A DNA stretch of 64,000 nt from Psammoneis japonica (lineage: Eukaryota), in contig QPGO01000091.1 of NCBI GenBank assembly GCA_008632985.1, positions 186,001 to 250,000 of the forward strand. The letters run 5' to 3'. How positions within the stretch are numbered: position 1 is the first letter of the stretch; the number at the start of each line of letters is the position of its first letter. The notes beneath the pieces were generated by a model, which worked only from the letters and a program-made list of their open reading frames with translations, was not told the DNA's origin and searched no databases. Of this stretch, positions 7,108-59,927 are shown one piece after another. Both the position numbers and the translations under genes were made by a program.

Positions 7108-7335
7108 TCTGTATGTATATCCTAATCAGCGGCAACAACAATGATGGATGTTGTCATTGTGAATTCTTCGCCTCTCTCGGTCAGAGGTTCAGCTCATCAC
7201 GGCGAGCGAGAAGCGTGCCGCAACATTTTGGTTCCCGCGACAAGACTGCTGAATATAACAGTTCAAAAGATATGTAGGTTTGAATTATGAATGTATGTGC
7301 AAGACAAAAGGAATATTCGATACTGATCGTAGATC

Positions 7336-9267
7336 AGATAAAATTTTAGTCTTATTGACTGTCCTAAATGACATATAAAGTATTTCGATAGAGGGCTATG
7401 TAAAGGATTTGAAAAAAGAAGAGATAACGTCTAAGATTAGTATTTTATCAGTGAGTGAATAAAACATCAGAAAATGAACGAGACGCTGATTAGGCGGTAT
7501 ATCGCGCCGGCCGGTCACCCTATTTATCCGTACCGGCTTCTTCGCGAATTCAACGGTCAGCGTTATCATAGCGGACACCAATCACCCAAAACCAATGGCG
7601 AAGCAGACTCAAAGATTAGTGACGTATGCTGCCGCCAGCAACGCGGGCACTTTTTTTTGCTTCCCGCCATCGCGCTCGGAACCTCTCTCCGCCCGCCTGT
7701 CGACGAAGGAAAAAGGCCTTGCCAAAGATGCGAGGCACCAAATCTACTGTATCACGATAGACTTTCGCGCAATGCATACTTTAAAAGAAGAACAACGAGT
7801 AAAAGGAGCAGCTGTAGAAAATACAAAATTATGAGCATGCAAATGATGTTGACACATCTGCAACACCACTCAAAAACCAAAACAGAAAAAGATGCTGTCC
7901 GTCGGTTTGTTTGCATGGCGGGCACTCCCACAGCCATGAGATCTCTTTGTTGTTGCATTTGAAGCATGCTGAGTTTCCTTGCAACCTGTGGGTCACTGGC
8001 GTGCTTTTCAATCGAAGCTTGGAACTGCCGCTGCGCAGTGCCCTTTTCCTTGAGCACCTTTTCGCCCTCATCGTTGGCCATGGAGGCAAACTTCATGTGC
8101 ACGTCTTGTGCCACCTGTCGATCATCAAGATCCCCACCTTCCTCTCTGGCTTCATTCACAATGCCCTCCATGGTGGAAGTGAGCGCGGCAAAGCACAGCT
8201 CGGCAGCTTCAAGGAGTTTCTCTGGCTCCAAAATATCCACTGGCTCGGCGCTACCACCGCTTCTCTTTCCCACAACAGACTCGCCCGTCACATTTTCATA
8301 AAGATAAAATTTTAGTCTTATTGACTGTCCTAAATGACATATAAAGTATTTCGATAGAGGGCTATGTAAAGGATTTGAAAAAAGAAGAGATAACGTCTAA
8401 GATTAGTATTTTATCAGTGAGTGAATAAAACATCAGAAAATGAACGAGACGCTGATTAGGCGGTATATCGCGCCGGCCGGTCACCCTATTTATCCGTACC
8501 GGCTTCTTCGCGAATTCAACGGTCAGCGTTATCATAGCGGACACCAATCACCCAAAACCAATGGCGAAGCAGACTCAAAGATTAGTGACGTATGCTGCCG
8601 CCAGCAACGCGGGCACTTTTTTTTGCTTCCCGCCATCGCGCTCGGAACCTCTCTCCGCCCGCCTATCGACGAAGGAAAAAGGCCTTACCAAAGATGCGAG
8701 GCACCAAATCTACTGTATCACGATAGACTTTCGCGCAATGCATACTTTAAAAGAAGAACAACGAGTAAAAGGAGTAGCTGTAGAAAATACAAAATTATAA
8801 GCATATAAATAATGTTGACATATCTGCAACACCATTCAAAAACCAAAACAGAAAAAGATACTATCCGTCGGTTTATTTACATGGCGGGCACTCCCATAGC
8901 CATGAGATCTCTTTGTTGTTGCATTTGAAGCATACTGAGTTTCCTTGCAACCTGTGGGTTACTGGCATGCTTTTCAATCGAAGCTTGGAACTGCCGTTGC
9001 GTAATGCCCTTTTCCTTGAGTACCTTTTCGCCCTCATCGTTGGCCATGGAGGCAAACTTCATGTGTACGTCTTGCGCCACCTGTCGATCATCAAGATCCC
9101 TACCTTCCTCTCTGGCTTCATTCACAATACCCTCCATGGTGGAAGTGAGCGCGGCAAAGTACAGCTCGGCAGCTTCAAGGAGTTTCTCTGGCTCCAAAAT
9201 ATCCACTGGCTCGGCGCTACCACCGCTTCTCTTTCCCACAACAGACTCGCCCGTCACATTTTCATAA
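7336..9267. repeat. Direct tandem duplication, 966-bp unit (7336-8301 and 8302-9267)
   Basis: Units align without indels, 26 substitutions by manual count, all transitions; 2-bp 'ag' microhomology at the junction. Confidence 0.98.
7911..8301 (-). pseudogene. Orphan 3' fragment of the 8877-9668 gene, hypermutated at TpA, stop codon lost
   Basis: Same peptide as the C-terminus of the intact gene with Y>C, R>G, I>T, T>A, N>D, M>V and TAA>CAA; no 5' half. Confidence 0.92.
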
Positions 9268-9668
9268 AGCGATTGGAATCGCTCGACAGCTCGTTTCACC
9301 TTGGGGTATTGTTCGGGTTGTTCCAAAAATTCAAACGTCGCTTCCTCCAAACAATCCTCATCGACATCAAACTCTTCAAAGATCGGTCCCTGCTTTTGCA
9401 ACAGATTACGTTCAAACTCCGCCTTGAGAAGCTGTCGTAGCTGCCGTTCGGGAATGGTCTGACCGGACATTTGAATTTGTTGTACCTGTTGCGACAGCTG
9501 CGCCACGACATTTTGCATTTCCAAAAAGAGACGATCAAAGATCTTGCAAACGTCCTCGGGTTGGATGCAATCGGATTCATCCAGATCGTCAATGATAGTA
9601 TCAAACTCGCGATCCGGATTCATTTTCGAATAGGCCGCAACGGCCAAGAGCGCGGCAGAACCGGCCAT
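8877..9668 (-). CDS. Uncharacterised alpha-helical protein with N-terminal hydrophobic anchor
   Basis: Open frame (ORF track 8877-9881); likely start MAGSAALLAVAAY at 9668; ends AMGVPAM-stop. Confidence 0.8.
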   Translation of the reverse strand: MAGSAALLAVAAYSKMNPDREFDTIIDDLDESDCIQPEDVCKIFDRLFLEMQNVVAQLSQQVQQIQMSGQTIPERQLRQLLKAEFERNLLQKQGPIFEEFDVDEDCLEEATFEFLEQPEQYPKVKRAVERFQSLYENVTGESVVGKRSGGSAEPVDILEPEKLLEAAELYFAALTSTMEGIVNEAREEGRDLDDRQVAQDVHMKFASMANDEGEKVLKEKGITQRQFQASIEKHASNPQVARKLSMLQMQQQRDLMAMGVPAM

Positions 9669-19684: not shown

Positions 19685-20108
19685 TTTGGCAAAACTACAG
19701 TATTATCATCGTCGATTTTCCATTGCCCGCTGATCGCCGATTGCGGTGCGTGATCGGCGGCTTCGATGCGACTGACAGACTGTGAGACGCACCGGTTCAT
19801 TCAATCATCTCAGATCGGTTACCACGATGGCATTCAGTCACAGACAAGATTACATTTTCAAAAATTTGAAAATACGTAGAACCTGCGACAGTTGTATGTA
19901 CTAAGCAAAAAAACGGTACTTTTCGCACATACAACGGTCGTTTTTTTTTTTTAACCTGCGATGTCAGGTTCGTCAACAACAACAAAGAGGAGTCCACAAA
20001 CATTGGGCCTTCGGTAAAGATTTGCATCACCCAAACGCCACCGTTCTGAGTCTTTGCAGGTTGACTTTCAAGGTTACCGATCTACAGTTTGTCTTGAATT
20101 GCAACATA

Positions 20109-24169: not shown

Positions 24170-27100
24170 TACACAACATCTCAACCAAAACACATCGAAG
24201 TCACCTTCCTACTTTCACTCAAAACGTTCGCTCAGATCGATTTGAAATTGGTCCATCGTTGCATTTTTAATTGAGGGATGGAAGCTTTGGGGGTCGCCGG
24301 GATTCCACTCCTGCCACAAATGATTGGCACTGCCTTGCATGTCAACCAAATCATTCATAATCCTCGTGTTGAGAGGTGGCATTGTGACTCATTTCTTCCC
24401 CTTTGTTCATTCAAAATGGTGGGCTTGAGCAGAGGAATCTTGAACCCCGAGATGAAACACCCAACTTCTGGCATTGCCGCCATGGACTTTGGAGTTCTCA
24501 AGAAGGGGGTCATTGTTGGTTGTCTCCCCACTTCTCCACTGAGCACAGGCCATGCCCCCAATTTCCCACTGAGGCAATGTGTCACTCTAAAAAAGCTGCT
24601 GCTGTGTTTGACATGTGGTCTCTGTGCCATCAATGGCAACAATGGGGAAAATGTTTGTCACAGTCTGCCACGCACTTTTGTGCTGCAATGTGATGACTGA
24701 ATCTTTCTGCAAAAACCAATTGGCCTCATTTCACTCACACACAGTTTGCCAATGAGGACCTTTTTCACTTTCAACACAATGCCCATTTCCTCCACAGTGT
24801 TGTCACCACCTGACACAAGAAGCATTTCTGTCATTTGTGTTGACAAAGCAGTGAAGAAGGGTCCAAAGTTCTTGATGCCACAATTTTGTGCAAGCCAAGG
24901 TTTGCTTCTTTTCACATCTTCCGAGACTTTTTGTGAGCAAATGTTTGGTTGAATCCATTCAAAAATGCTTCCATGTGAGAACACACACAAAGCATGCTTT
25001 GTGACAGACTCAAAAGCAAATTCATGCATTGGCACATCAAATTGTTTCTGTTGAAGTTGGCTGGGGTGGGGGGAAGCTGTTGGTTGCAACAAAAACAAAT
25101 CAAAACACAAAGCATGCAAATTTTATCCAACCACTTTGATCTCATCTCACAACCCCCTGGCTCTGGATCAGTGTGTGCTGCTTGCATCAATCAACATGAC
25201 ATTGATGCACAGGAGACTCTCAAAAATGCCAGATGGATGATGCACACTGGGGTTGCACATGCAGGTGATTTGTTGCAGTGCCCTCTGGTGCATTTGTGAA
25301 AAACTCTCTACAGAAATTTTCCATGTGTGGATCAAAATGGAGCAACAACTGACACCATCTGTCTGACATCATGCAAGAGGCTCTGTGGCAACCCAGGGTG
25401 TGCAAAGCATGTGCACAGTGTGGCCAACACATGGACTCACATTGGACAGCAGTTTGCACACATCAGTCTTTTTTCAGAGCCAGGTGCTTTTCACATCATT
25501 CCAGTCCCCTGCTGCTCACAGAGTCTGGTGTGCCAATTCTGTGCATTGTTTGTTCTTTTTGTGGCAGTCTGTCAGCAGCTCAGTTGTTTGTGTCACATGC
25601 AAAACCAAGTGTCAACTTTTGCCCAGTTGCATGAAAAATGTTGTGATCAAATGCTAAAACAGCATTGTTTGTGCTGGTTGTTGGCATCAGGACTCCATGG
25701 AAAACAATGTAAGAAAAATGACAAATGCCACAGATGTGCACACACACTGGGACATTGGTTTTGGATCAGGCAGTGACCCTTCTGCATGTGCATGGTTTTG
25801 TGTTCTTTGCATTGGACCTGCACCTTCCTTTTGACACTCTTTTTTTTTTCATGGCAAAATTTTTGCATGCAGGTTTCATCCTGAGCCCTTTCACCTGACT
25901 TGCTTTTGACAAATCAGTGCACAATCAACATTGCCTGCTGCTGTGGTTTTCACTCATGTCAACAGGCCCAGAAGGCAGAAGCTTCAAGAGGTAAAGTCAA
26001 CAATTGCAAGCAAAGGCCCTGGACAAAGCCAGTGTGTCAGAGATGTCAGACCTGACTGCATTGTGTTCACACATGGTCAGGCACCAACTGGCTCTCTTGG
26101 CAGGTGTTCCAAGTGTTGTCTTCTCCACAGTTGTGCACTTTGTGGGCATCAACAACTGGCACAAGAATGCTTTGGGACATGGCAGAGCTGCAACCTCAAT
26201 TGGAAAAAAAAAACAGCGGCAGCCAATTGTCTTGCTTTTGGCACCTGTGTCATTTTGAGCATGGGCAAGCATCAAGTGGTCTGACCAGCTGTTGGAAATC
26301 AGATGGGCAGCCAAAGTGATCATCGACAGCAAAAGGGAAAGGGAAGATCTTGTCATTGTTGAGGGGATTCAATGGCAAGAAAGCCATCAGCAGAGGAGGC
26401 AGAGGTGCCAAGAAACTTTGATCTTGTGCTCAAATGTGGTGTGCCTCAGTCAATGCTGGAATGGAGGAGGGGGGCAGCAGACCAGGACGAGGGTGTGAGA
26501 AGGAGGTTTGGGTGAGTTGGCATCAACAGCTGTGTGGTGCAGAGGTCATGGTGTGGTGGCAGGAGCATGTGAAGAGGGAAGAGATGCCAACACCAGCAAA
26601 AGAGGATGGGAGGTCAGAAGTTTTGCAGGTTCAAGGTGTGTGAACATTGTTGGGGGAATGACACACAGCTGACCACCAGGGGGGCCAGGGTCTGTGAAAT
26701 GAGAAAGGTGGTGCCTTGCAAAGGCTACTGGAGAGCTTGGGCTTGTGACTGCATTAGAGTGAGAAGGTGTGATCACCACAGGCATCAAGGGGGGTGGTGC
26801 ATCCACGGGGCAGGGAGAACCAACATGGCATTGATGATGAAGGTTGCAGAGGCACAGTTTGTGCTGAGCAGCAGCTGCTGGTGGGCTGGTGCAGGTGCCA
26901 GAGGCAAGGCGACAGCAATGAAAAAGCACAAGAAAGGGAGTGAAGGGGATGGCTTGCGAGCATCACTTGCCTGCATGCAACTCTGGCTGGGTTTGGCTCC
27001 TTCTAACTTTTTTCAGATGGTTCATGTCTGATCTGTTGACTTGTCTCTTAGTGGGATCAGGTCTGCAATTGATTGCCCCCCACATTGGCATGAAAAAGCA

Positions 27101-29850
27101 CCAAGTTGGTGCAACCAATGAAAAATCACTTTAATTGAGATGGCCTGGCATGAACAGGCTGCAACTGGCACAAGTCTTGACCACTGAAGCAGCAAAAGGA
27201 ATGACCACCAGCAATAGAGTGATTGCTGGCAAGGAGGATTTGAGCACCAACATGGTCAAAATGACCAAGATGGGTGGATGTTTGGTGATTTTAACAACAA
27301 CAACAACAACAACAATGCATCACAACAAGCACAACATGCCCAGCATGCAGGCAACATGCAATTTTCCCAACTCTTGTTGGAACAAGTGAAAGCTGTGAAA
27401 AAAACTTTGGTTGATGAGGTGGATTTGGCAAAAGAGGATCAAGTGCAAGTTGCTTCCAAGGTTGCCAGCACATTGAATGAAAAAGCCAGCATTTGCAAAG
27501 TTTCATTTGTGAACATTTCTCCCACGCAGGCTTTTGGGTTGGACTTCGATGAAATCAAGAAGAAAGACCCCATGGATGACTTGGCAGATGCCATGGCAAA
27601 ACACACCATGATCACAGTCTTGCCATGCACAGCCACAGCCATGACCACAAAGAATTCCCCCAAAGGATGCAGGAGCAGATTGCACTGACAACCCGCACAG
27701 CACAGATCAGTGCTGTGCCATGCACTTGAGCCAAGCTGGACATCACATGTTGGTCAAAATGGCTGGCTGATGGTGGGGCTTCCCTCCCTTGTGAACAAAT
27801 GGACATGCTGTTTGCCCAGGATGGTTTGGTGCAGGAACAGAAATGTGTTCTCCAACCAGGATGATTTTGTCTCAACAGTGTTTGGCAATCATTGCACCAG
27901 GAACTGTTGTCTTTGTGGGCATGGACGTGAAAGAAAAAGCCATTTTGCCAAGGCATTGGATCTTGCCTTTTGACAGATGCCAAAACAGATGCTCGCCATC
28001 AACAGCTGCAATGTTTTGAGCAGCAGGTCTGTTTTGCGATGGGTGATCAGCAGTGAACAGGCCAAGCGGGTTGGTCAGCAGAATGAGATGACAAGTCCTT
28101 GCTCAAAATCATCAAAACTGCTGTTGTGTGGGCACCCCGTGGGCATCACAGCACACACAGCTTCTGTTTCCTCAATCAGACATTGCTGGGGTGGTGGGAT
28201 CTGAGTGAGTTGTGAGTTGTGTTGGTTGAATGATGCATTTGGGCCTTTTGACAAACACAAATGTCGTCGCAAAAAGGTGTGGCCCGAGCATGAGCCATTT
28301 GGCTTGCTCAGTGCCACACCGCACACAGCAAATGAAGCAATGATGACACAACTTGAACATGCAAGTCTCAGAATTGAGCCCAAAAGTAAACTGACACAGC
28401 CAAATTATTGTCGATCCACCGCAATTATTTTCTCCTCTCCAGATGCCTGCACAATGTCTGAGCATTGTGCCGTGGCATCTTGCTGTGGACCGTGCACTGT
28501 GGCTCCCCCCTCTGCACCGGGGCAATGGTTTGCAGTGCACAGGCAGCAGCATCTGTGAAGGTGCATGGCCATGCATTGGCATGCTGCCAGCAAAGTTACC
28601 CAGATGCCTTCTGGTGTTGGGAGACTTGGAATGATCACAGCAAAATGATTTTTGTCATGGCAGAACCCACCATCCATCTTCAATCAAGTCCTGTTGATGG
28701 GTCCATGCCTTGTCAAATTCTGAGCCTCAAGACAGAATCAACATCAATTTTGAGAGCACCCACTTCTGTCCACTTTGCGATGAGTTTCAAGTCCATCTTC
28801 TTGGACTGGCACATGACCAACCTGACTTTCTGACTGGCCCACAATGTGCAGAACCAACCCAATGGCACATTCTCAATGGTTGGAAGAGTGCTCACAAATG
28901 ATTCCACAAAAAATGAAGTGTGGAAGGGGTGCCGAACATCACAAGGGCAATTTTGCTCAACTCTGTGATGAATGGCTCACAACACACTTGGCAAATAAAA
29001 GAGCACTGCACACCTTTGATTTTGTGATGATTGCAATGACAAGTCATGGTTCAGCACAAGAAAAAACCAGGGTGTTTTGTTTTTGCTGAGCTCAAGTGTT
29101 GATGGCAAGCTTGTGCAAGAACTCAACTTGCTGCCACTTGCCACTTTTGCATCTTTCCTTTGCATGTCACTTTCTCCAAAACTGAACAACAAATTGGAAC
29201 AGCCATGTGCAGTTTCGCAACAACCACTTGCTGTGTGAAAGGAAATGTGGTGCAAAACAACGCACTTTCTTTTTGGCTTTGCTCTGCAAGCACATGGAAC
29301 ACACCACCATTGTCAAATTTTTGTTGCCAAAAGCCACCTGAGATGTCCTTGGTGATGGGATGCTGGCAACAGGAGAGCAGAATTGTGACCCCAGTGGACA
29401 AAGAGCTGCTGACATGACTTGCCACGACCTGGCTGGCAGAGGAAATTTGTTGGGGTTTGCAGAAGAAATGGGGTGATGTCCACACTTCCAACCCCACCCA
29501 CTTTGTGTCCTGCTTTTGCTTGCTCTGGAGGAGGCTGCCATTCACGATGAGCTCTTTTGCCCCAAAGAGAGGCGCACACAGTGCTGAAGGAGTCGCTCAC
29601 TTGACCCAGACAAAAGATCATGTTGGTTGGAGACAAGTGTTCAATGGATGTTTCTCAGTCCTGTGGAATGAAGTGTGCAGAAGATGCATCTGTTGGACCA
29701 ATGTCTCTCTTCCAAATGTCAAGATGAGACCATTTGCAGACTCAACTGGGTTGCTGCTGCTGTCGGAAACCATGGTCGCTCGGTTGCGTTTGGCCGCCGC
29801 GGCCGGCAGGCAGGTCTGGAAGTTCGTCGATCGTTCGTCTCACGGCGGCT
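24170..29850. other. TpA- and CpG-depleted hypermutated island containing degenerate coding and mobile-element relics
   Basis: Only about 20 TA dinucleotides seen in ~5.6 kb, CG rare, TG/CA in excess; ORFs are Cys/His-rich and almost Tyr-free. Confidence 0.9.
25860..26310 (+). pseudogene. Hypermutated, frameshifted paralogous fragment of the 36.1-38.1 kb membrane-protein gene (includes its intron)
   Basis: Aligns with about 36140-36570, e.g. LRSYMVWRRSALLVAIPSVVFS vs LCSHMVRHQLALLAGVPSVVFS and WHKNATGY vs WHKNALGH. Confidence 0.9.
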
Positions 29851-33734: not shown

Positions 33735-35720
33735 TGGATGGTTGCATGTTGCATGCAGAGAATTTGAAATTGGTTCCTGCCCTTTATGGTAAGGGCTGCT
33801 CAAAGACGTCGTTGGCCGGTCAAACTTCACCTTTTGGATGTCTCACATGCACATGCACTTGCCGTCAGACAGACTGCACATGGATGATGACCAGACCTTC
33901 TGCTAGATGGACGAGCAGATCTCTCTGAGATCTGCCTCTCATTCTCTTCCACTGGTGCTCGTGTTGTCACAGTCCTGGCGCTTGGGGAGTCTTTCATGTC
34001 ATTGTCATCATCGCTGCCCTTCGGCATTCTGTCAGGTTGTGGCCTTGTGCTGCTTTGTGAGCCAATCGAGAAAGCCTCATCTTTGTTCCCAAAACCATTT
34101 TTTTCTTGCTTTTGCGCGGCATTTTTCATGCTTGTAGAACCATGCCAGGTTTCCAAGTGTGCATGGCAAAAAATGCTTTCACACCAAGAACAACCATGGA
34201 GTCTCTCTGAGCCTGCTCCATCCGTGCGTTGCTCCCACATCAACTGCAGAGATGTCTGCCATGAGTTCCAAGTGCACAATGCTCTGCCTTGCCTCCACAC
34301 ATCCGACCCCTCAACAGGCTGCACATGGACTCTGCACTTGATCTGGACCCCTTCTTTGAAGACCCAGAGCAGCACGCACAACCCAAGAGGGACTTTGTGG
34401 ACCTGTTTCACATGAGCATCTCATCAATCAAGCGACTCCAGCCACCTTGCACGGTGGATCCCGCGGATGTGCTGTCCATTAAGATGATTCTCAATGCAGC
34501 CCTTTTTTGCACTGTCAACAGCAATCTTTTGTGCTGCAGAGTCATTGTGAAAAAGCACACAGAAATTGTGCAGACCAGTGCCAAGAGAAACATTTTTGGC
34601 TGTCTGTCTGTCTGCCCTCAGTGAATTTTAATTCTGCAAAAAATGGACTTTGCTGCCAACTGACAAGGCGCATTTTAGAACAATGCACATTTGCAGAAAT
34701 GTGCCTGACCAGTTGGCAGCAAAGTCCATTTTTGCACAAGTTTTGAGAAGACAACAGTTTTGGTGCAAAAACATGTGGATTCTGCGGACGTCCTTGAGCA
34801 ATTTGTTGGTTTTGCATCACGGGTCATTTTTGAAAGATTCCCACTGGCACCCTGCTGGGCCTCATGCACTTTGTTTGATGCCTGAAAGTCTGTTGTCAAT
34901 GACCAAGCTGAGTCTGTGTCTGCACGAGCAATCTCTCCACACTCTCGTGCATGTCGGCGCAGCGTGCGCACATCAATCCTGATGTGAGGCCCAATTGTGG
35001 GGATTGGAAAGAGTTTTCTTGCTCTGAACATGCACCCAAACAAGCACCTGTGGCTCCATTGTTGTTGACCATGCATCCTTCGTTGCATTGCATGGACAAT
35101 TTTGTCATGGCACTCCACGCGACATTGTGTGTGGTGCTGCACAGCCAGCATGCTTGACAGCTGTTGGGTGTGATGAAGGCATTCCTGCACATGTTGCACC
35201 CAAGTGTCAACCTCAACAAGAATCTGTGCCTCTTCCAGCAAGGAATGCAACTTGCTTGTTGATTGGTGCACACAATCTCATCAGGACCCGGCACAGTTTC
35301 CCATCAGCGACTGCGCCGCTGAACGCATCTGCCAGCGCACACCATTCTGGAGGTGCCAATGTGCACATTGCATCCAGGTGGTGCACGCCACATGTGCATG
35401 ACCAAGCTCTTCTGCCTCCTCCATTGAAGAATGCACCTCCCACCTCCGTCAGTGCTCCTGATCCCATCGCGGCATCGCGCAACATGCAGCAGACGACGAT
35501 TGTCCCAGTGACGGAAAATGTGGACTCTTTCATGCTCAAAATGGATTGCCACACAAATTTGTTCCTGATGGGACTGTTGAGCAAGATGGACATCAACAAG
35601 GAGTTTGATTTTGGAAAGCTGCTTTGGCCGGACTTGTTGCAAAGCATCTTCCCGGAGGCTGACGAGCGGAGGCAGCGGCAATTTTCTCAAAGAATGCCAG
35701 ACAGCTGGTCCATGTCGCTG
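33735..35720. other. TpA-depleted hypermutated island of unidentified origin
   Basis: Very few TA in ~2 kb; reduced CG; many overlapping Tyr-free ORFs. Confidence 0.85.
34635..34736. mobile_element. About 100-bp hairpin / MITE-like element
   Basis: caaaaaatggactttgctgccaactg ... cagttggcagcaaagtccatttttg: ~25-bp near-perfect inverted repeat with further imperfect inner pairing. Confidence 0.7.
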
Positions 35721-36149
35721 CTCTCTGGTGGACTTTACACTGGAATCTCTAGAGCTGGGAGAAGTCTCTCCAGTGGAGAGTCTATTATTTCCTCCTTGCA
35801 CCAGGTGCGTAAAGGCGTTCCTGCCTCATTCGACTGACTCCGCTGCAGGCAAGAACTGCGCGTTTGTCTGGAAGATGGGAGTCCTGTCCAAGTTGAAGGC
35901 GCCTTCGTCGATCTCACGTCAGTCTCGACGTGCAACATTCAAGCCGGAATTAGCCGGAATTCCGAATGCAAGTGCTTTGATGAGGCGCGGATCTTTCGCT
36001 TACGCAGCTGCCAGAATTCGGAGCACTTTATGTTTCGAGGCACACGCAGCTTTGTGCCCTCGACGCGTGCTGTAGCACCTGCAGGACGCCTCCTCTACCT
36101 TTCAACACCTCGACATTCTTGATTCTAAGCAGATTCTTTTTCACGCAGG

Positions 36150-43269: not shown

Positions 43270-44610
43270 TACTCGCAATGCACATGCTCGCCGGAGATAA
43301 TTATTAATTACTGAATATTAATAACAAAAAAAGCAGCAGTTCACAAGCCCATTCTCCAAATGTCATTGTCACCCACGATTCGTTTCATGCAATGGTTGCT
43401 CACCACTGCGCATGTCTCAAAATGAGCTGCACAAACTGAAACAAAGCAACACAGAGCCATGACTGTTGCTGGTTGTTTCACCCCTTGTGCGGGTGGGTGG
43501 GTGAGGGGGGGGGGCAGCAAGAAAGTGCCTGTCAAAAGCCAAAAAGAGATGCTTCTCTCTTGTCAAAATGATGCAGCTGTGCTCTGGGCGCAGGGACAAA
43601 ATCCTTTGTGCCACAGCACTTTGAGGCATTTGTTTTGCAAGAGAAAAGCTTGAGCTTGTGACAGGTTTGAGCTGCGCCACAGTGGGCTACACACACACCA
43701 CACACTCAAGCAGCAGCAGCAGCGGTGCAGCAGGAGCAGCCACAAAAGAGCAGCGGCTTCTTGTTTCTGTCAAAGCTGCTCAAAAAGAAGCTGTGCAGCT
43801 GAGCTTGGAAAGAGGTGCACACAAGTGACAGGAGAACCCTTGTGCCTGCCCAAGATGTGTGTGCAGAAACATCAACAGCACACTGGGCATCATCAACAAA
43901 AGCAAGAGGATCGTCTTGGCAGAGTCACATGATGGGCCTGTTCCAGCTCCAGGTGATCTGCTTTTCATCACACGAGAGGCCAATTTTCTGTGCAGTTTGG
44001 CGCAATTGACTCCTTCAATTTTGATCGTTTCGAAAATCGAAAGGTGAGTGTGCACCCGAAAATGCACACAAAGTGCACACTTGCCCCTCGATTTGGCAAA
44101 AAACGGATTTGGAAAAAGCCAATTGCGCCAAATGCACAAATTTCCAAATGATGGGAATCGAGCCGGCGCGGAGCACCTGGAGCTGGAACAGGCCGATGAC
44201 TCTTGAGGGCTGCCAAGAAGAACCCATTGTGTGTGCCAAAACAGCAAAAACAAAAGTTTGAGCCCCCCCAGCAGAGTTTTGAAACCGCTTTTGCAACCAC
44301 AAAAGACATTGCATCTGAGTTGGTCTAAAGCAAGTGTCAACTGAGACATTTTGCAGCTCTTCTTGTTTGTTTTTTCTGGTGAGGAGCTTGCTGGTGGTTT
44401 TTGCAAGAACACAGAGGGTGTGGGCACTTCCAGGCTGGAGCACTGCTCTGTTGCTTTGCCCTGACCCTTCCATCCCCAACCTTTTAGCAGCAGTTGCTCC
44501 CAGCAAACTTTCATGAAAAGAGTTGTGGGGGCACACAGAATGAGGAGTGGAAAAACAAGCTGGAGGCCTCGAGGACGGGGCGCGGCGGGCGGGGGGCGGG
44601 GAGGCAGCTG
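43270..44610. mobile_element. TpA-depleted non-coding insert with internal inverted repeat (arms about 43908-44008 and 44120-44224)
   Basis: ggcctgttccagctccaggtg / cacctggagctggaacaggcc and gtgcagtttggcgcaattg / caattgcgccaaatgcac are reverse complements; TA nearly absent. Confidence 0.6.
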
Positions 44611-44764: not shown

Positions 44765-46728
44765 ATGTCGGTAGAAAAGCCTCAAAATGTTCTGATGGAA
44801 AGCGAGGAGAATCAACATTATTTCAAAAGTGGAATTGCTGAGGACGACCTTTCCAACGAGGAACAAGCAGTGGAGTCACTCGTTGAAAACAGCGGCGCCA
44901 GTCTTCGACAGCGACACCAAAACTCGCGGATATTAAGCACAGCGACCACATTACCTGATGTAGAAACCACATCTCTTGACGACAATAAAAGTTTTACTGA
45001 GGAGAATGACAAGAACGAGGAGGAGTTGGAGGGTACACTGACCGAGGATGTGTACAGCCTGTTGTACACAAGCAGCTACCGCAGTCCGGCGTTTGCGTTT
45101 TGCGTTTTTGTAATTTTCATTCAAGACACAGTCGTGGCCTTGATTTTATGGGACCTCTTGGACAATTCCACCAATTCCGAAAACCCGCTCAACGTTCCTC
45201 CCGGGGTCAGCGTGCAGGTGCGAGTCGCAGAATTCTTTGCTCTGTTTCTGGCGGTCGCCACGCAGAGTGACATTGTCGAGGCTGCCGTCATGATTCACAA
45301 TGGTTATGATCCTCGTATACTGGAGCGAAATCCGTTTGCCACCCAGTCTAGCTGGCTCGTGTCGATCTTTTTTCAATTCTTGGTGGGGGGTGGCTTGCTC
45401 ATTTCGAATTTTATCCTCGTCATGAAGAGCAGCACGGTGATTGACATGATGCTGAATTTCGCGGCCTTGTCATTTGTTTCCGAAATTGATGATGTTGCCT
45501 TTGCCATGGCCAAACGAGGGTTCGTGTCGGATCGTGTTCAAAAGGAAGCACTGCATGTTACCGAATTGCGGGTACCCATCCGACCATTTAGCAATATCTT
45601 TCGCCGAGTGGCGTTTCTGTTTGTGTTTGGCGGGCTCATGGCTGCATATGGGGTCATTGTACATGCTCAAAACAGTGGGCTCTTTCTCTGCAACTCAATC
45701 CATGTGCAATTCGGAGACGAATTTGCATCTCTGGCTGCAACCTTTAGTGGTATTTACGAGCGAACTAATACCAGGGTGGAAGAAAGGTTCACATATGTTG
45801 CTCAAAAGGACCAAATCGTAACACTTGGGTATTGCAAGTCCGAACGGGCATGGACGTTTACACTAATGTCGGACCAATGTGATTGGATTGCCATTTCACC
45901 CATTACGGAGACTTTTGACGTGATGACTCTGGCGGATTCAACCTGGCAAATTTGGGTTGTTGAACGAAAGCAGGGATTCCCTTGCAAAACTTCTACATGA
46001 AGTGCAACGACTGCGAGGGAAGCTTTGCGAAGGGACGATGCAGTGGTCGTGGGCAGTGCGTGAATAACGAATGCGTTTGTGACGAGGGGCGTTACGGGAA
46101 TCAGTGCCAATTTTCGTCTCCTTGCCCCCAACTTGTCGTGGACGCAAGAACGATTTCATTTCCAAGTGAATTTGCAGAGGATTTTGTATCGGATGAGTAT
46201 GAGTTGCTTGTGGATGAGAGCAAGGATATCGTCACTACCTATGACAGGCCCGTTTACGTGCACAGAAATGATGAAGAATGGAGTGTGATGCTATTTCTCG
46301 GTAGACGCTGGATTATCACAACTACCTTCCTCATCGGCCCTTTAAACACTACCAATGTGACAACTGCTGACGTTGTGGAATATCTGGATTCGTTTCACGG
46401 TTATTTCTCGGAAGACTACATCTCCGTTTTCATGAGTGCCCCCATGGATGCAGGAACGCCGTCAGATGCATTTACTCCAGAAGGTTTGGGTTGGTATCGA
46501 GTTAAAACGAATGCCTTGTCAAAATTACTCACCAATACTGTTGATATCAGTCAGCCCTTGGGCACATCGCTTCTCTGTGCTGTCTGCGACGCAGAAGAAA
46601 ACGATTGTTTCAACGACAATAAATGCCTTGAAAACGGGCTTTGCAATTGCACAGACGGATTTGAAGGCGCTCTATGTGAGCTCAATCTCAACGATGCTGA
46701 GACAAAAAATGGTCGCGAGGTTGCATGA
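44765..46728 (+). CDS. Multi-TM membrane protein with extracellular EGF-like domains; 1-nt frameshift near 45980 (lesion or assembly error)
   Basis: TM block with MLNFAALSFVSEIDD; CSGRGQC..C.C..G..G..C and C..G.C.C..GF.G..C EGF motifs; two overlapping ORFs joinable by one base. Confidence 0.8.
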
Positions 46729-51669: not shown

Positions 51670-53495
51670 AGAAGTGTCATGTGATTGAATCATTGAATAC
51701 ATTTTTGTTCGTCGCAGGCTTCAACGTGATGCACGCCCCTGCAAATAATGCATCGATCGTGAAAAGAAATTCTTCGACAAAGAAAATTGCCGCACGGCAA
51801 AAATGATGTTTCGATCGTGAACAGAAACTTGAAGTTCGGTGCTTTTGCTTCCACGCCACGTGATGTCTGACGAAAGCAATGATGTTTCTCAGCTTCTTTG
51901 TTGCCATTTTGCTGCTCCAGCATCTGACCAAACAAAGCCTTGATTTGAGACAAAAACAGCCACAACTGAGTGTTTCTCTTTGCACATCCCTGACATTTTG
52001 CGGACATCCAAAACACCATGGCTTTCAGCGACCATGATAGCCAACTTTTTTCAACCTCATGGAAAATTGGAGAGCATGACGAGGACCATTTCAGACAGTC
52101 TGTGTTGTCAATGGTGACAATGAAAATGCTTGTCACACAGGCTGCAGCAGCACAAGAAGAGAAGTCTGCAAGTGACAACAACTGGGTTTCCACTTCACAC
52201 TCACAGAGCCTGCGCCTCCAAAGACGAGCTCTTTTCCATCGCTGTGCATGTTTCCTCTGTGGCATTGACCGGCACAAGTGTTTTGGTCATTGTCATTGAC
52301 AAAACAGCAAAAAAGGTCTCTGTGGACACAAAACAGGCCAAAGAAGAAAAAACAGCTGGCGCGACATGACGAGCGAGGCTTGCAGCAAAAACAGCAGCAG
52401 CAGTCAAACACTTGTGCTGACACCACATTTTCTTTTAAAAACAGAGTGCAGCACCCAGCTTGGAGATTGGACACAGCACAAACTGCAGCAAATCCTTGAG
52501 CCAAAAGTTCAGCAGCCAGGAAAGCAAGTTGACCTTCCCTCTTTGCTTCCCCGCACTGAAAACAAACAAGTGGCTTTCTTTCAATTTGTTGCTCTGCCAC
52601 CTGCCATGCAAGAGATGTTGACAAGATGTGTGCATGTGCTCCTGTGGTGGGCTGCCATTGTTGCAACATGAAGAAGGGCACATTGAATGGCGCAAATTGC
52701 CAACAAACTTTCCCTTGCATCAAAACAAGTGGGGGGATCATGTGGGCGAGTGCCTGATGATTTGAGCCTGTCAGCTGTTTTTGTGCAACAACATGCACAT
52801 CAGAAGCAAGCTGATGGCAAATGAGGAGAGAGAGTTTGATCTGATCATTTTTTTTTTTATTTTTGACCTTAATCAGATGTTTTTCCTTCAAACCTTCTGT
52901 GCAAAATGCAGCAGCTGCAAGGTTGGCTTTGCAAGCACTGCCACGGGACAGAGCTGTGCAAACAAACATGTGTTTGTGGCACAAAGGTCATTGTGAGAGC
53001 CAGTGCCAGCATTCATTGTCCTGCCCCCAGCTTGTCATGATGATGCAAGAATGCTTCATTTCCAAGTGAATTTGTGGTGGAATTTGTGCATGGACGAGTG
53101 CCAGTTGCTTGTGGATGAGACCAAGGAATCGCAGCCACCTGTGACAGGCCTGTTTAAATGCAAAAATGAAGAGGAATGCAGTGTGATGCCATTTCTTGCA
53201 GATGCTGGATTGTCACAACTGCCTTTCTAATCACCCTTGTGGACATTGCGAATGACAACCAATGATGTTGTGGATTGTCTGGATTTGCTTTGGATGACAG
53301 CAACTCCATTTTCAAAACAAGTGTCCCCCACCTAAATGCCGGAATGCCATCAAATGCATTTGCTCCAGAATGTTTGGGTTGGTGCATTGAAATGAATGCC
53401 TTGTCAATTGGTCAGCGTTGGGCACATCCTTGTTGTGCTGTCTGTGATGCAGAAGGAAATGGTTGTTTCAACAAGAATGAAGAGCTGGCAAACGG
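51670..53495. other. TpA/CpG-depleted island; right part is a hypermutated copy of the EGF-gene 3' region
   Basis: About 52995-53540 aligns with 46095-46690 (tcatttccaagtgaatttg, ttgcttgtggatgaga, gatgcagaaggaaa); TA nearly absent up to about 53495. Confidence 0.88.
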
Positions 53496-56353: not shown

Positions 56354-59300
56354 CACTTCCGAAGACGTCCCCCAAAGTGATGCGTTGTTGCGTTTTTCGG
56401 GTCTTTGAATGTGAAGCACATGAGCCAATGTTGCATAAAAAAGCTTGGGTTGATTTTATTTAGGCGCCACCGCCCCCCATTTCTCGTCTTCCATCTTGGT
56501 CCCAACTAAAGACGAAACAAAGGCTAGAACCATAACACTAACAATGAATTTACATTTACAGGCTACTTTGATGAACAATGTTCATCATGTGGTGCTCGCC
56601 CTCGAGCAGCAACCCCCAGCAAGTTTGTTTTGGAAAGATGGAAATCCCTTGCACGGTGGCAACAGAATTTTTGAGCAAGATCCGACTGAAGATTTGGCGG
56701 CACCTGCAGTGGTGGCCAAAAAGTTGGTAAACTTGCCCAAAATGGATTTACAGGAATTGGAACACAATGTGGTGCACAATGTGGTGCAGTGGGGACGAGT
56801 GGCGTCTGTCTCGTGAGATCCTTTTCTTGAGAATCTGCTGACTTGGATTTTTTTGCGCTCGGCCCGTCAGGCAGCATCGGCGGTGGCTGCTGTGTCTCGT
56901 GGTTCATCTTGCATGGGTTTGCCACAGTTGACATAGGATTGAACCGAGCTGAACATGGGTTTCTTGTCCACACTTGTTGCACATGCATCGGTCAGGGTCA
57001 CTTGCCACTGCTGCGCCGGTTGCAGCTCTTCTTGTTTCCAGCTGCACTCTCACCCTTTCCAATTGTTCCGGGTGCACTGAAAAATGTCGCTCGCCATTAT
57101 CTTCTTTTAATTCTTCAACATTCTTGTGCACCGGATGAGGGACTCCTGCTTTCTCCGCCAGCATGTTGACGCATTGGAGCTTGCTGTGGTTGAGGAAAGT
57201 GGGAACGCCGCAAAAGGCGTGCGGAATCTTGGCACGCTCCTCAGCCGTCATTTTGTCAATTCGGAGACGCTCTCGTGTTGATGTGTTGCATTCACACGTT
57301 CCCGCAAGGCACAATGCATCCATTGGTGAGCTTCTTGAACCGGTGTTTCCGAAATGCTTGACGATGTGGTGGCATTTTTCAAGCTTCGATTCCGTGCCAG
57401 TGGTTGTCACACAACAAGTGTCGAGCTTGCACTTGGACCATTTTGAAGGCTTGACAACTCTGTACAAGTCTTCACATGGCAGCGGCTCATCAAGTCCACG
57501 AGCTGACAGTGTTGCATTTACAACCGCCGACTTCGCATCTTCGGCAAAAAGCGGCTTCCCAGAATCTGGGTCGCACCGCCCGCCCGCCTCTGCCGCTCGG
57601 GAGACGCAGAGCACTTGTGCCGATCGAACCAAGATTCAAGATTGTTGTCACGTGTTTCCAGAGGGTAAGTCCACCTTCGAATGTGCTTTTTGCAATTGTT
57701 CCACTTCTCACTGTTCTTGATGTCTTCAATTTCTTCCTTTGAGTTTTTCTTCCTGCCAAGTTTTCCGAAGATAAGAGCATCAATCACCCTCGCCTCGTCG
57801 GATTCATCGTTGTACCGCACGCAATCCTTTGACTCACGAACCGCACGACAACAGTCAATGTGAGGCCTCTCAATGTCCGAATGATCCGGTTGGTCCAGTG
57901 CCAAAGACCAAGCCTGCATGCAACATCCTGACCAAAAATTTGCTTCCAAAATTCTTCCTCATTTGGCCACGTGTCCAAGCGATGAACTTGAGGGTTGACA
58001 TTCGGATGCCTCGCAAACTGTTCCACAGCATGAGCATGGTCTTTTGTTTCCAAAGTTGGCACTGCTGCAGCTGTGCCAATTTCTCCTGTCTCTGTGGCCA
58101 TGGTGAAGAGTCCCTTTCCGTTGCCATCTTCACAATTCTTCAATTGGTCAAAAGCATGGTCGGAGGCAACACTGATGCGACAACCCACCAATTGAATTTC
58201 TCGTGCATGCCGAATGTTGTCGCTTGTGCCAGTCTCTGTAAGATTGGATTGCCTGACAGAATCATCATGTCTCTCACATTTTGTCCTGTGGGTCCATGCA
58301 ACCAATCCAATCCTCAAACACCGACAGTGCAGTCACATTGTCTCCGACTGCTTCTTTCAACAAAGAACAGTGCATCTCCTCTTTGTCAAGAAAAGTTTCA
58401 CCTCTTTGTTGATGAAGAAAAGTAGAAATCATCGCCGTTGCTGTGCTTTTTCATCGCATGGTCAATGCATCGCGACGTTGGAAGCGTTGGATGAAACAAT
58501 GGATTTGCGGCCGCATGTCGCAGGTCAACGGGACAGCTTGTTTGGAGAGGCCTCGGCAGCTGCTCAATAGCCTTGCATCATTCCCCTTGCATCTGCAACC
58601 ACACTTGTTGCACTCATGCATCATTGATGTTGCCCAATCAGCAGGTCCTGTGACGCAAAAAATTGGAGTTGGCGGATACTCCTTCTTGACATCAAACTGC
58701 TGGTGCATCATCTCACCATTGCATTCCTCGTCAATGCACTCCAAATGTGTGCTGAGGCGGTTCAATTCCCAGCGGACGATGTGAACTGCACCCCTTCAAT
58801 CTCACTGTAGAGGTTGTCAGGAGTTTTTGTTGTGTCATCACGTGGCACTGTAAATGACATGGGCACCAGGAGGGAAATGCTTCTGATGCCATTGGAGCTT
58901 CTTGGCATTGACATCACCACCCATGATCTCATTCGAGTCGGCATGAAACCGAGACAGGCACAAGTCCAGAAGACACAATGTCAAGGCCTGCACAGGTGCA
59001 GGACAAGAAATTTTCTTCTTTTTGCATGTGTCAACTCTTTTGCGAATCTCTCTCTTTGGCACTTCTCGAGAAAGAGGGTCTTCTTCAACATCAGTGGAGG
59101 AACCCATGGTGCTGTTTGATGTGACGGTGCTGACGGCATTGGTGGCAGCAGTGTTGGGCAAGTGGGTTGCTGCAGATGGCTTGTTGTTTTTTGAAGCCCT
59201 GGTGCCATTGTAGAACAGTGCCTCCATGCCTTCCTCAGTTGGGGCCTGACAACTCTGCATTTTTTGGCATTCTTTCTTGCATGCTGGCAGCGAAGCGGTG

Positions 59301-59927
59301 GACAGCCGCGTTTTGCTCGGTGCTCATGTTCTTTCCACAGATGGATTTTGGGCAGCTCGCATCATGACCCTTTTTGCAGGAAGGCCCTTGTTTGCACCTC
59401 TTGCACTCAACAACCTTTTCTTGAGTGGCGTGACTTTTTGGCAGAGTCAGAATTTGTGATTCTGCCTCCGCCGCTGGTGATGTTGTAAACCGAGGCGCAT
59501 TTTTTCCCGACAACTTAGCGATTCCAGAAAAAGCTCGCTCCTTTGCTTTTTTTGTGGCAGGCTTTGAGCCTGAGACTGAATGCCCATGGTGCTGGGAAGC
59601 TTGCGAGAATGGTGCTTCTCCATTCTGCTGCAATTCCTTCTCTCAGAACTCTCTTGTGCAGGTCGGCACTGATGATGAGTGAGATGAAAAAAGACCGGAG
59701 GAGTTTGAATTTTTTGTGGGGTGTCTTTGTCCGAGCGCCACCGCTCAGATTGCGGCGCGTCCGTCTAAGATGGATCAATCAACACGGCTGTGTCTGTGTG
59801 ACAGTGATCGTCAAACAATGATGATGTGCATTCTTTCAGAAAGCGTCAAGTGTCATGACGTGCATTCTTGAAATGAAGTGTTCTGATTGGTCCAATCTTC
59901 CATCGGCAGGGGGCTTTCAACGAAGTG
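56354..59927 (-). mobile_element. Degenerate DNA-transposon-like element with TpA-mutated DDE-type transposase-like frame
   Basis: Colinear fragments: CxxC zinc-binding region, SDHAF, ATETGEI, DTWP, RLGLWHW..RI, ESKLE..H; Tyr largely replaced by Cys/His; weak terminal inverted similarity tcacttc...ccccc / ggggg...gaagtga. Confidence 0.55.

What the first reader, a model, noticed from the sequence alone, without database searches (positions are those of the whole stretch)
7336..9267. 'Inverse RIP' snapshot: one copy of a young tandem duplication has lost every TpA by TA->TG/CA
Seen: the two 966-bp units differ at 26 positions, all transitions, with no indels. Taking the copy inside the full-length gene (8302-9267) as reference, 25 are A:T->G:C and 21 are at TpA (11 TA->TG, 10 TA->CA, so strand-symmetric). 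In 8798-9199 all 18 TpA sites are converted in the other copy, leaving 7832-8233 with no TA, while only 1 of about 14 CpG is lost. Examples: gatactatcc->gatgctgtcc, tttatttacatg->tttgtttgcatg, catataaat->catgcaaat. Established: fungal RIP gives CpA->TpA and 5mC decay gives CpG->TpG; neither predicts this. Inference: the TA-free copy is the derived one, because it is a headless gene fragment, it lost the stop codon, and 400 bp with no TA is unlikely in an ancestor. This points to a fast, saturating, duplicate-targeted A->G mutator, a candidate genome-defence system I do not recognise from the literature.
Basis: partly seen in the sequence, partly recalled or inferred. Interest (0 to 1): 0.95.

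Follow-up and report, generated by a model that had tools for sequence, protein, structure and literature searches.

The report
TA-erasing hypermutation in diatom DNA
One copy of a freshly duplicated diatom gene fragment, and about a quarter of the surrounding 64 kb, has had nearly every TA dinucleotide rewritten to TG or CA, which points to an undescribed, locally targeted A-to-G DNA mutator that looks like fungal RIP run in reverse.

Summary
The units 7336-8301 and 8302-9267 differ at 26 sites, all transitions with no indels. At 25 of them copy 1 has G/C and copy 2 has A/T, and 21 lie at TpA (11 TG, 10 CA). In the core, 18 of 18 TpA are converted.

In 27 diatom orthologues, copy 2 carries the conserved residue at the coding differences (Tyr 27/27; copy-1 residues 1 of 162 cells) and the conserved stop. 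The TA-free copy is therefore derived, and classical RIP is excluded.

Contigs of one read set show both variants at single-copy depth and twofold depth on the shared parts, so this is a real tandem. They reproduce only 17 of the 26 differences.

The tract is not unique. Ten more TA-depleted islands of 0.6-2.8 kb cover about 25% of the window (TA 3.2 vs 38.2 per kb). Their loss of TA plus CG equals their gain of TG+CA. Diverged repeat pairs and an outgroup protein give the same direction.

My best reading is a targeted, multi-round, saturating TpA mutator, probably adenine deamination in DNA, followed by slow CpG decay. The enzyme, the targeting rule and any defence role are inferred. Nine literature searches found no description.

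The parts
7336..8301 (.). Tandem unit, copy 1 (promoter-less, headless copy; the derived, mutated one)
   Evidence: 966-bp direct repeat of 8302-9267, 26 transition differences, no gaps.
8302..9267 (.). Tandem unit, copy 2 (part of the intact gene plus 575 bp downstream of its stop; ancestral states)
   Evidence: carries the orthologue-conserved residues and the stop codon.
7699..8194 (.). Hypermutated tract in copy 1: 25 A:T>G:C changes. Partial zone 7699-7832 (3 of 12 TpA), saturated core 7833-8194 (18 of 18 TpA).
7831..8234 (.). 404-bp stretch with no TpA; CpG count is normal (14)
8877..9668 (-). Intact gene (263 aa + stop, P0001): conserved diatom protein of unknown function, no Pfam domain above cut-off
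   Evidence: (370 homologues with E<=0.001).
7752..8301 (-). Headless gene fragment in copy 1. It has 6 amino-acid substitutions, the stop codon is lost (TAA>CAA at 7913) and it reads through about 60 codons.
   Evidence: 14 coding differences, 7 synonymous and 7 non-synonymous.
8300..8303 (.). Duplication junction with 2-bp microhomology (AG)
   Evidence: right extension of 2 bases.
24359..27004 (.). TA-depleted island (8 TA, 11 CG in 2646 bp); 25861-26310 is a mutated relative of 36137-36572
27293..29849. TA-depleted island. The rule ran it on to 30110, but TA resumes at 29850, at the start of a cytochrome b561 gene.
33905..34480 (.). TA-depleted island (1 TA in 576 bp)
34677..35736 (.). TA-free island (0 TA in 1060 bp; 33 CG)
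43323..44485 (.). TA-depleted island (2 TA in 1163 bp) with a sharp left border next to a TA-dense stretch
51747..53155 (.). TA-depleted island; part of repeat 52285-54728, whose right part (53767-54728) is unmutated
56565..57463 (.). TA-depleted island (5 TA in 899 bp; CpG near normal, 41)
57814..58423 (.). TA-depleted island (1 TA in 610 bp)
58852..61520 (.). TA-depleted island (8 TA in 2669 bp)
61683..63982 (.). TA-depleted island (6 TA in 2300 bp); mutated relative of 52520-54728 and of 46071-46733
45964..46725 (+). Unmutated member of the old repeat family: open frame with an EGF-like domain, used to polarise the island copies

Best explanation
A real mutational process in this pennate diatom converts TpA to TpG or CpA (A:T>G:C) within sharply bounded DNA segments until no TpA is left.

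The 966-bp tandem duplication caught it early. The non-functional copy has lost 21 TpA, plus 4 adenines in weaker contexts, before any ordinary substitution accumulated. The same process, followed by slower CpG>TpG/CpA decay typical of methylated DNA, produced the ten older TA-depleted, gene-free, partly repetitive islands that make up about a quarter of the window.

Most likely chemistry (inferred): enzymatic deamination of adenine to hypoxanthine in DNA, which pairs with C. The enzyme would need a 5' T, as TadA/ADAT2-3-type deaminases do. It would act on both strands over several cell cycles on segments marked by silencing chromatin or by homologous RNA.

Shown: the direction, the sequence context, saturation, strand symmetry, sharp borders, and the link to non-genic repeated DNA. 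Inferred: the enzyme, the substrate (DNA rather than RNA; A rather than its partner T), the targeting signal, and a defence role.
For: Direction:
- At the 6 substituted residues, the 27 orthologues match copy 2 or a near neighbour (Y 27/27, I 17, T 16, N 15, M 22; K 26 where copy 2 has R) and match copy 1 in 1 of 162 cells.
- The copy-2 stop lies within 1 residue of all 27 orthologue ends.
- For the old family, the outgroup P0122 agrees with the unmutated copy at 40 vs 3 and 42 vs 5 informative codons, including TAY>TGY, CTA>CCA, ACG>ATG and CGC>TGC.

Context, hit adenines by 5' neighbour inside the tract: T 21/58, A 3/94, C 1/71, G 0/57.

Saturation: 18 of 18 TpA in the core.

No transversions and no indels in 26 differences, which fits a directly miscoding lesion.

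Strand symmetry and no same-strand runs: 16 runs vs 13.5 expected; older pairs p 0.30-1.0. TG is about equal to CA in 10 of 11 islands.

Mass balance: islands have TA 3.2 vs 38.2, CG 20.4 vs 54.3 and CA+TG 220.2 vs 147.5 per kb, with unchanged base composition.

Older repeat pairs: where the normal partner has TA, the depleted one has TG/CA at 27/30, 17/19, 15/18 and 10/13 sites.

Order of events: the young tract keeps 52 of 53 CpG, and some islands are TA-free with near-normal CpG.

Reality: both variants at single-copy depth, with doubled depth on the shared parts.

Precedent for a 5'-T rule: the fungal Tad2-Tad3-Ame1 complex edits A preceded by T in 96.7% of N. crassa sites (PMC13431901, passages).
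Against: - No enzyme was identified, because no genome is held for this window.
- No natural DNA adenine deaminase of this kind turned up in my searches. The one search aimed at it listed only base-editor engineering papers.
- The sequence data cannot separate A deamination from modification of the paired T.
- Only one sample holds the stretch, and it is probably the assembly's own.
- Its contigs show only the ancestral allele at 6 of the 25 sites, and a mosaic haplotype (8031 unconverted linked to 8036/8038 converted). Either the assembly overstates the count or the locus is heterogeneous.
- Only part of the duplicated unit is hit, and unmutated repeat partners exist, so the targeting rule is unknown.
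- Most island sequence has no partner inside the window, and 100 frames (>=90 aa) overlapping the island regions give no transposon domain.
- 72.6 kb of orthologue-bearing contigs from other diatoms show no TA-free run above 238 bp (low power, short genic contigs).
Confidence: 0.55

Rival explanations
1. Thymine-centred chemistry. A TET/JBP-type dioxygenase (or other thymine modifier) marks T in TpA within silenced DNA. The modified base (for example an oxidised thymine) mispairs with G at replication and gives T>C. Because TpA is its own complement, this would look identical in sequence.
For: It gives the same sequence signature by complementarity. In dinoflagellates 5hmU is made by TET/JBP homologues, is enriched on repeats and silences transposons (PMC11572971, abstract and passages). 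Early work reported a TA/TC preference (PMC11071213, passage). A slowly miscoding epigenetic mark would fit the stepwise or mosaic state hinted at.
Against: The same paper did not recover a TA preference at base resolution. That oxidised thymines miscode strongly enough to saturate 18 of 18 sites is only my recollection and was not tested. Excision of such bases would be expected to leave some transversions or indels, and none are seen in 26 changes. No diatom data exist.
Confidence: 0.12
2. RNA-level A-to-I hyperediting. An ADAR- or ADAT-like enzyme edits sense/antisense or RdRP-made double-stranded RNA from the gene's 3' part. Reverse transcription and gene conversion then write the edits into copy 1.
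For: The 5'-neighbour order T>A>C>G resembles RNA editing enzymes (PMC13431901, passages). The tract covers the last 284 nt of the CDS plus about 212 nt downstream. It fades out downstream and ends 107 bp short of the junction, as an internal conversion tract from an mRNA-sized donor would.
Against: Both strands carry A>G equally and interleaved (13 top, 12 bottom; 16 runs vs 13.5 expected). One cDNA can carry edits of one strand only, so repeated RdRP/editing cycles plus reverse transcription would be needed. The islands reach 2.8 kb and are saturated. The transcript ends are unknown because no RNA run is listed.
Confidence: 0.08
3. Artefact. Collapsed or mis-joined alleles, polishing errors, or modified-base miscalls in the assembly created the apparent second copy and its G/C states.
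For: Only one sample holds the locus, and it shares only 0.79 of the sampled words. Six derived alleles and the single reverse difference are not seen in its contigs.
Against: K-mer contigs show both variants at 13 sites within one run and at 4 more across two runs, each at about the depth of the unique flank (36-55 vs 59.8), and twice that on the shared parts. Contig breaks fall at 7336 and 8301. Collapsed alleles would give flank depth equal to shared depth. Errors do not select TpA, and ten older islands with 20-30% divergence from their relatives show the same relation.
Confidence: 0.05
4. Error-prone repair synthesis by a Pol-eta-like polymerase (WA hotspot, TA>TG) during the duplication event or later repair of copy 1.
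For: Pol eta preferentially mutates WA, and TA holds a WA hotspot on both strands (PMC7884765, abstract and passages). The tract is patch-like.
Against: AA is hit about 11-fold less often than TA (3/94 vs 21/58), although WA includes both. 18 of 18 sites converted is far beyond a polymerase error rate unless there were many rounds. There are no transversions. Kilobase-scale saturated islands do not look like repair patches.
Confidence: 0.05
5. Classical RIP-like C>T at CpA/TpG acting on copy 2 (reverse polarity), or plain 5mC decay.
For: The dinucleotide pair involved (CA/TG vs TA) is the one RIP uses. Diatoms have DNMT4 enzymes related to fungal RID (PMC9998398, passages).
Against: All 7 coding differences polarise against it, and so does the outgroup for the old family. 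RIP would make TA-rich islands, not TA-free ones. CpG is untouched in the young tract (52 of 53 kept).
Confidence: 0.02

Closest known systems
Repeat-induced point mutation (RIP) of Neurospora and other fungi
   Same: Dense, transition-only, locally saturating hypermutation of genomic DNA. It hits a fresh duplication and gene-free repeated DNA, destroys coding capacity, involves the same dinucleotide pair (CA/TG vs TA), and is later associated with CpG loss or methylated-type decay.
   Different: Opposite direction (TpA>CpA/TpG rather than CpA>TpA), so A:T>G:C instead of C:G>T:A. Only one copy is hit (25 vs 0-1). Only part of the duplicated unit is hit. Unmutated repeat partners persist. The organism is a diatom, not a fungus. 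The products are TA-free, GC-neutral islands instead of AT-rich ones.
A-to-I editing by Tad2-Tad3(-Ame1)/ADAT-type deaminases (fungal sexual-stage mRNA editing) and TadA-derived adenine base editors
   Same: A>G outcome with a dominant requirement for T/U immediately 5' of the target A (here 21 of 25; fungi 96.7%, PMC13431901 passages).
   Different: Those natural enzymes act on RNA and leave no inherited change. Here the change is fixed in genomic DNA on both strands and goes to saturation. DNA activity of this fold is known to me only from engineered editors (recalled).
ADAR hyperediting of long double-stranded RNA
   Same: Clustered A>G on both strands, with 5'-neighbour order U>A>C>G (recalled from the ADAR literature).
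   Different: ADARs are an animal family acting on RNA. The 3'-G preference I recall for ADARs is absent here (3' neighbour C 10, T 7, A 3, G 1). The changes are genomic.
5-hydroxymethyluracil marking of repeats in dinoflagellates (TET/JBP homologues)
   Same: A base modification in a SAR-lineage alga that is enriched on repeats and silences transposons. An older report describes a TA/TC preference.
   Different: It is described as an epigenetic mark, not a mutator. No TA preference was found at base resolution. It is not known in diatoms.
CpG decay by 5-methylcytosine deamination in methylated diatom transposons
   Same: It explains the CG>TG/CA half of the island signature and its variable, age-like extent.
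   Different: It cannot remove TpA, and it is absent from the young tract (52 of 53 CpG kept).

Membership tests
Fungal RIP | C:G>T:A transitions, preferentially CpA>TpA | tested here: not met
   Orthologue polarisation shows A:T>G:C, TpA>TpG/CpA.
Fungal RIP | Both copies of a duplication are mutated | tested here: not met
   25 changes in copy 1 and 0-1 in copy 2. Selection on the intact gene could hide hits on copy 2.
Fungal RIP | Triggered by duplicated DNA of several hundred bp; mutation spans the repeat | tested here: inconclusive
   The 966-bp duplicate is hit and repeats under 200 bp are not. However, only 496 of the 966 bp are hit, and unmutated partners of old repeats exist.
Fungal RIP | Depends on a RID/DNMT4-type or DIM-2 cytosine methyltransferase, premeiotic timing | not testable with these tools
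   No genome is held. Diatom DNMT4 exists in some species with unknown function (PMC9998398 passages).
5mC deamination (CpG decay) | CpG>TpG/CpA | tested here: not met
   Young tract: 52 of 53 CpG are kept. It is met only as a second layer in the old islands (CG 20.4 vs 54.3 per kb; 37/50, 24/28, 28/34 and 19/22 CG sites read TG/CA).
ADAT/Tad2-Tad3-type adenosine deamination | Target A preceded by T/U | tested here: met
   21 of 25 hit adenines have a 5' T. Per-site rates: T 21/58, A 3/94, C 1/71, G 0/57.
ADAT/Tad2-Tad3-type adenosine deamination | Substrate is RNA (tRNA anticodon loop or mRNA hairpin loop); change not inherited | tested here: not met
   The changes are in genomic DNA and are seen in DNA read contigs.
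ADAR hyperediting | dsRNA substrate, ADAR deaminase domain with dsRNA-binding domains | not testable with these tools
   No genome and no RNA run listed.
Pol eta WA-hotspot mutagenesis | Hotspot WA (both AA and TA), mixed substitutions, low per-site rate | tested here: not met
   TA 21/58 vs AA 3/94; 0 transversions in 26; 18 of 18 sites saturated. Motif taken from PMC7884765.
AID/APOBEC cytosine deamination | C>T in TC or WRC context, strand-coordinated clusters | tested here: not met
   No C>T in the derived copy. At most one C:G>T:A change (8109), which is not seen in the reads. No strand runs.
Diversity-generating retroelement (adenine mutagenesis) | A>any base, template/variable repeat pair with a reverse transcriptase | tested here: not met
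   Only A>G occurs, on both strands. No reverse-transcriptase domain was found in the 100 frames (>=90 aa) overlapping the island regions.

The most novel reading that the evidence does not exclude
Diatoms of this lineage have an endogenous, chromatin- or RNA-guided DNA adenine deaminase, in effect a natural adenine base editor. It erases every TpA from silenced or duplicated DNA over successive mitotic divisions. It is still active, because the assembled copy carries about six more conversions than the read set of the same organism. It constitutes a hypermutation-type genome defence that evolved independently of fungal RIP and uses the opposite chemistry.
Probability: 0.35. Interest if true: 0.97.

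Novelty: categorically new. Interest (0 to 1): 0.9.

Why it matters
If real, this is a second, chemically opposite kind of hypermutation acting on selected genomic DNA, and it occurs outside the fungi.

It would imply a natural activity that converts A:T to G:C in DNA with a simple TpA rule. That bears on genome defence, on how diatom genomes silence and degrade repeats, on mutation-spectrum models, and on base-editing enzymology.

It also has practical consequences. TA-free islands lack TAA and TAG stops, so they spawn long spurious ORFs (113 stop-to-stop frames of 90 aa or more overlapping the island regions). They would also mislead repeat dating and transposon annotation.

The young duplication gives a clean substrate/product pair, which makes the process testable at once.

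Tried and rejected
- Whole-genome scan: no genome is held for this window. A genome-wide count of duplicates and a search for candidate deaminases were therefore impossible.
- RNA evidence: no RNA holder is listed. Transcript ends, expression of copy 1 and RNA editing could not be examined.
- Joints: none were listed, so the 8301/8302 junction is supported only by contig breaks and depth.
- Other diatoms: 20 metagenome loci with orthologues (72,590 bp) have no TA-free run above 238 bp. They are short genic contigs, so this is a weak negative.
- Transposon identity of the islands: 42 + 58 frames overlapping the island regions were scanned against Pfam. The only hits were in flanking genes (cytochrome b561, ankyrin/kinase, EGF-like), plus one sub-threshold MeaB match.
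- The unmutated family member 45964-46725 has a single distant relative (40% identity).
- Strand-switch (break/resection) model: best split p = 0.097 and no same-strand runs. This does not exclude single-strand chemistry repeated over many rounds.
- 3'-neighbour rule: pyrimidine favoured, 9 vs 4 at informative sites, not significant.
- Simple-sequence explanation of the islands: rejected. Entropy and compressibility are near background, and only two short tandem arrays lie inside islands.
- Earlier scan notes: nothing on this genome or this signature.
- Literature: searches found no description of TpA>TpG/CpA hypermutation of repeats. Term searches inside PMC2806351, PMC3145265 and 10.1101/2025.10.24.684338 found no mention of RIP, hypermutation or deamination.
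- Structure, complex and atlas tools were not used, because they do not bear on the question.
Full report
**1. The observation**

Units 7336-8301 (copy 1) and 8302-9267 (copy 2) align without gaps and differ at 26 positions, all transitions. At 25 of them copy 1 has G or C where copy 2 has A or T. The single reverse site is 8109 T against 9075 C. All differences lie between unit positions 363 and 858. The first 362 bp and the last 107 bp are identical, and the junction has two bases of microhomology.

Of 59 TpA in copy 2, 21 are changed in copy 1, 11 to TG and 10 to CA:
- 0 of 26 in unit positions 0-361
- 3 of 12 in positions 362-495
- 18 of 18 in positions 496-858
- 0 of 3 in positions 859-965

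Each converted site carries exactly one change. The other four changes hit A after A (3) or after C (1). Inside the tract, hit adenines by 5' neighbour are T 21/58, A 3/94, C 1/71 and G 0/57. CpG is untouched (52 of 53 kept). A 404-bp TA-free run is expected about 0.0003 times in 64 kb at the background TpA density.

**2. Is it real?**

Only one sample holds the stretch. It shares 0.79 of the sampled words, and no RNA run is listed. I laid its contigs on 7000-8301.
- The unique flank has depth 59.8 and the shared unit parts about 101.
- Variant-specific contigs have depth 36 and 55 (copy-1 type) against 51 and 55 (copy-2 type).
- Contigs break at 7336 and 8301.

This is the pattern of a two-copy tandem. 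It does not fit collapsed alleles, where flank depth would equal shared depth, and it does not fit a consensus error.

The same table carries a caveat.
- Both alleles are seen at 13 sites in run X1.
- At 4 more sites, X1 shows the derived allele and X2 the ancestral one.
- At 7699, 7913, 7968, 7994, 8001 and 8031 only the ancestral allele appears.
- At 7721 only G appears, and at 8109 only C.
- One contig links unconverted 8031 with converted 8036/8038 within a single 31-mer span.

So the read set's copy 1 seems to carry about 19 conversions, not 25. Either the contigs drop rarer haplotypes, or the locus is heterogeneous and the assembled molecule is further along.

**3. Polarity**

The intact gene on the minus strand (9668-8877, 263 aa, no Pfam domain above cut-off) has 370 homologues with E<=0.001. 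The named ones are all diatoms, mostly pennate. I aligned 27 orthologues with both copies.

| Residue | Copy 2 | Copy 1 | Orthologues (of 27) |
|---|---|---|---|
| 170 | Y | C | Y 27 |
| 190 | R | G | K 26, Q 1 |
| 222 | I | T | I 17, T 0 |
| 223 | T | A | T 16, S 11, A 0 |
| 237 | N | D | N 15, D 1 |
| 258 | M | V | M 22, V 0 |

The copy-2 stop coincides with the orthologue end in 18 cases and lies within one residue in the other 9. Copy 1 reads on for about 60 codons. The 14 coding differences split 7 synonymous to 7 non-synonymous, as expected for an unconstrained fragment.

**4. The tract is one of many**

TpA observed/expected is 0.43 over the window. Besides the young tract, ten TA-depleted islands of 576-2818 bp were called by one rule. 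Together they span 16,150 bp, about a quarter of the window. The last 260 bp of one of them actually belong to the start of a gene.

| Dinucleotide (per kb) | Islands | Rest of window |
|---|---|---|
| TA | 3.2 | 38.2 |
| CG | 20.4 | 54.3 |
| CA+TG | 220.2 | 147.5 |

The gain of 72.7 per kb in CA+TG matches the summed loss of 68.9 in TA and CG, and base composition is unchanged. Island borders are sharp. The islands are complex sequence, not simple repeats, and no intact gene lies within them. The 100 frames of 90 aa or more that I scanned across the island regions gave no transposon domain.

Parts of the islands are diverged repeats of each other and of unmutated segments.
- Where the normal partner has TA, the depleted one has TG or CA at 27/30, 17/19, 15/18 and 10/13 sites.
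- Where the normal partner has CG, the depleted one has TG or CA at 37/50, 24/28, 28/34 and 19/22 sites.
- The one outside relative of this family (P0122, 40% identity) agrees with the unmutated copy at 40 vs 3 and 42 vs 5 informative codons. These include TAY>TGY, CTA>CCA, ACG>ATG and CGC>TGC.

CpG loss varies between islands while TA loss is complete in all of them. The young tract has lost TA only. TA erasure therefore comes first and is fast, and CpG decay follows slowly.

**5. Anatomy that constrains the mechanism**

(a) The changes are transitions only, with no indels. This fits a directly miscoding lesion rather than excision and error-prone filling.

(b) The process is strand-symmetric. 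TG and CA are about equal in 10 of 11 islands. Outcomes alternate at random along the DNA: 16 runs vs 13.5 expected in the young tract, with no clustering in five older comparisons. A single burst on one strand, a single cDNA, or resection from one break would each give same-strand runs. The data need either recognition of duplex TpA or many rounds, which is my inference. Many rounds would also fit the mosaic haplotype.

(c) Only the non-functional copy is hit. Selection against hits on the intact gene could produce this, so homology-dependent targeting is neither shown nor excluded.

(d) The hit part of the unit corresponds to the last 284 nt of the CDS plus about 212 nt downstream, and conversion fades out downstream. 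The 362 bp further downstream, although duplicated and carrying 26 TpA, are untouched. This suggests that homology to an RNA, or a small chromatin domain, defines the target rather than DNA duplication as such. That is inference, untested for lack of RNA data.

(e) Repeats under 200 bp lack the signature.

**6. Mechanism**

I commit to a targeted, multi-round mutator that removes TpA, most likely by deaminating adenine to hypoxanthine in DNA.

The 5'-T rule is the hallmark of TadA/ADAT2-3-type deaminases. The fungal Tad2-Tad3-Ame1 complex edits A after T in 96.7% of N. crassa sites, and its TA motif is 21.8-233 times more likely to be edited than the other motifs (PMC13431901, passages). That such a fold can be turned to DNA is known to me only from engineered base editors (recalled).

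The rivals are:
- modification of the partner thymine, with a precedent in repeat-enriched, transposon-silencing 5hmU of dinoflagellates (PMC11572971 abstract and passages; PMC11071213 passage)
- RNA hyperediting copied back into DNA
- Pol-eta-like WA mutagenesis (PMC7884765), which fits poorly because AA is spared, there are no transversions and the sites are saturated
- artefact
- reversed RIP, which is contradicted by the polarity tests

**7. Comparison and novelty**

In outcome the process works like RIP: dense, transition-only destruction of a fresh duplicate and of gene-free repeats. It fails RIP's defining features, namely the direction of change and mutation of both copies. It is not 5mC decay, APOBEC/AID activity or a DGR.

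Diatom DNMT4 enzymes related to RID exist in some species, with unknown function (PMC9998398, passages). They would not explain A:T>G:C.

Nine full-text searches and term look-ups in three diatom transposon or epigenetics papers found no description of such a signature. Supplements were not consulted. Subscription-only literature is not covered by these searches.

**8. Verdict**

The enzyme, the substrate strand or base, the targeting signal and any defence function remain inferred, and all the evidence comes from one 64-kb window and one sample. I rate the interest as high.

Noticed in passing
window 7000-8301 (reads of sample S1): The read contigs carry a copy-1 haplotype with fewer conversions than the assembly. 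Sites 7699, 7913, 7968, 7994, 8001 and 8031 are unconverted, and 8031 is linked to converted 8036/8038. Site 8109 reads C in both copies. This may mean stepwise, ongoing conversion, or it may be contig-level loss of rarer haplotypes.
   Followed up: partly
all TA-depleted islands, e.g. 57000-64000: Loss of TA removes the TAA and TAG stops, so the islands carry many long spurious open frames on all six frames (113 stop-to-stop frames of 90 aa or more overlapping the island regions). The 100 of these that I scanned gave no domain inside an island. This is a hazard for gene prediction.
   Followed up: partly
52285-54728 vs 61164-63993: One repeat copy is mutated along its whole length. The other is mutated only in its left part (52285-53155), intermediate up to about 53700, and normal from 53767. 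Mutation tracts therefore do not follow repeat boundaries.
   Followed up: partly
43162-43322: A very TA-dense, AT-rich 160-bp stretch (19 TpA) directly abuts the sharp left border of the TA-free island 43323-44485.
   Followed up: no
2515-7107 (-), repeat at 5143-5493: A 1530-aa Ser/Pro-rich open frame without a Pfam domain contains an in-frame 177-bp tandem repeat (94% identical). Its differences are a mix of transitions, transversions and an indel, without the TA>TG/CA signature.
   Followed up: partly
7474-7962 (+) vs 8440-8808 (+): A plus-strand open frame that starts in the unmutated part of the unit is 122 aa in copy 2 and 162 aa in copy 1, because the conversions removed its stop. There is no evidence that it is a gene.
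   Followed up: no
45964-46725 (+), 44765-46000 (+): The unmutated member of the old repeat family encodes an EGF-like domain and has only one distant relative in 5.8 billion proteins (40% identity). It is a lineage-specific family of unknown function.
   Followed up: partly
16794-19684 (-), 20022-20714 (+), 39733-40443 (+), 40894-42999 (-): Ordinary nuclear genes lie between the islands: two PPR proteins, a metacaspase-like frame, a GNAT acetyltransferase and an ankyrin-repeat protein kinase. All have normal TpA content.
   Followed up: no
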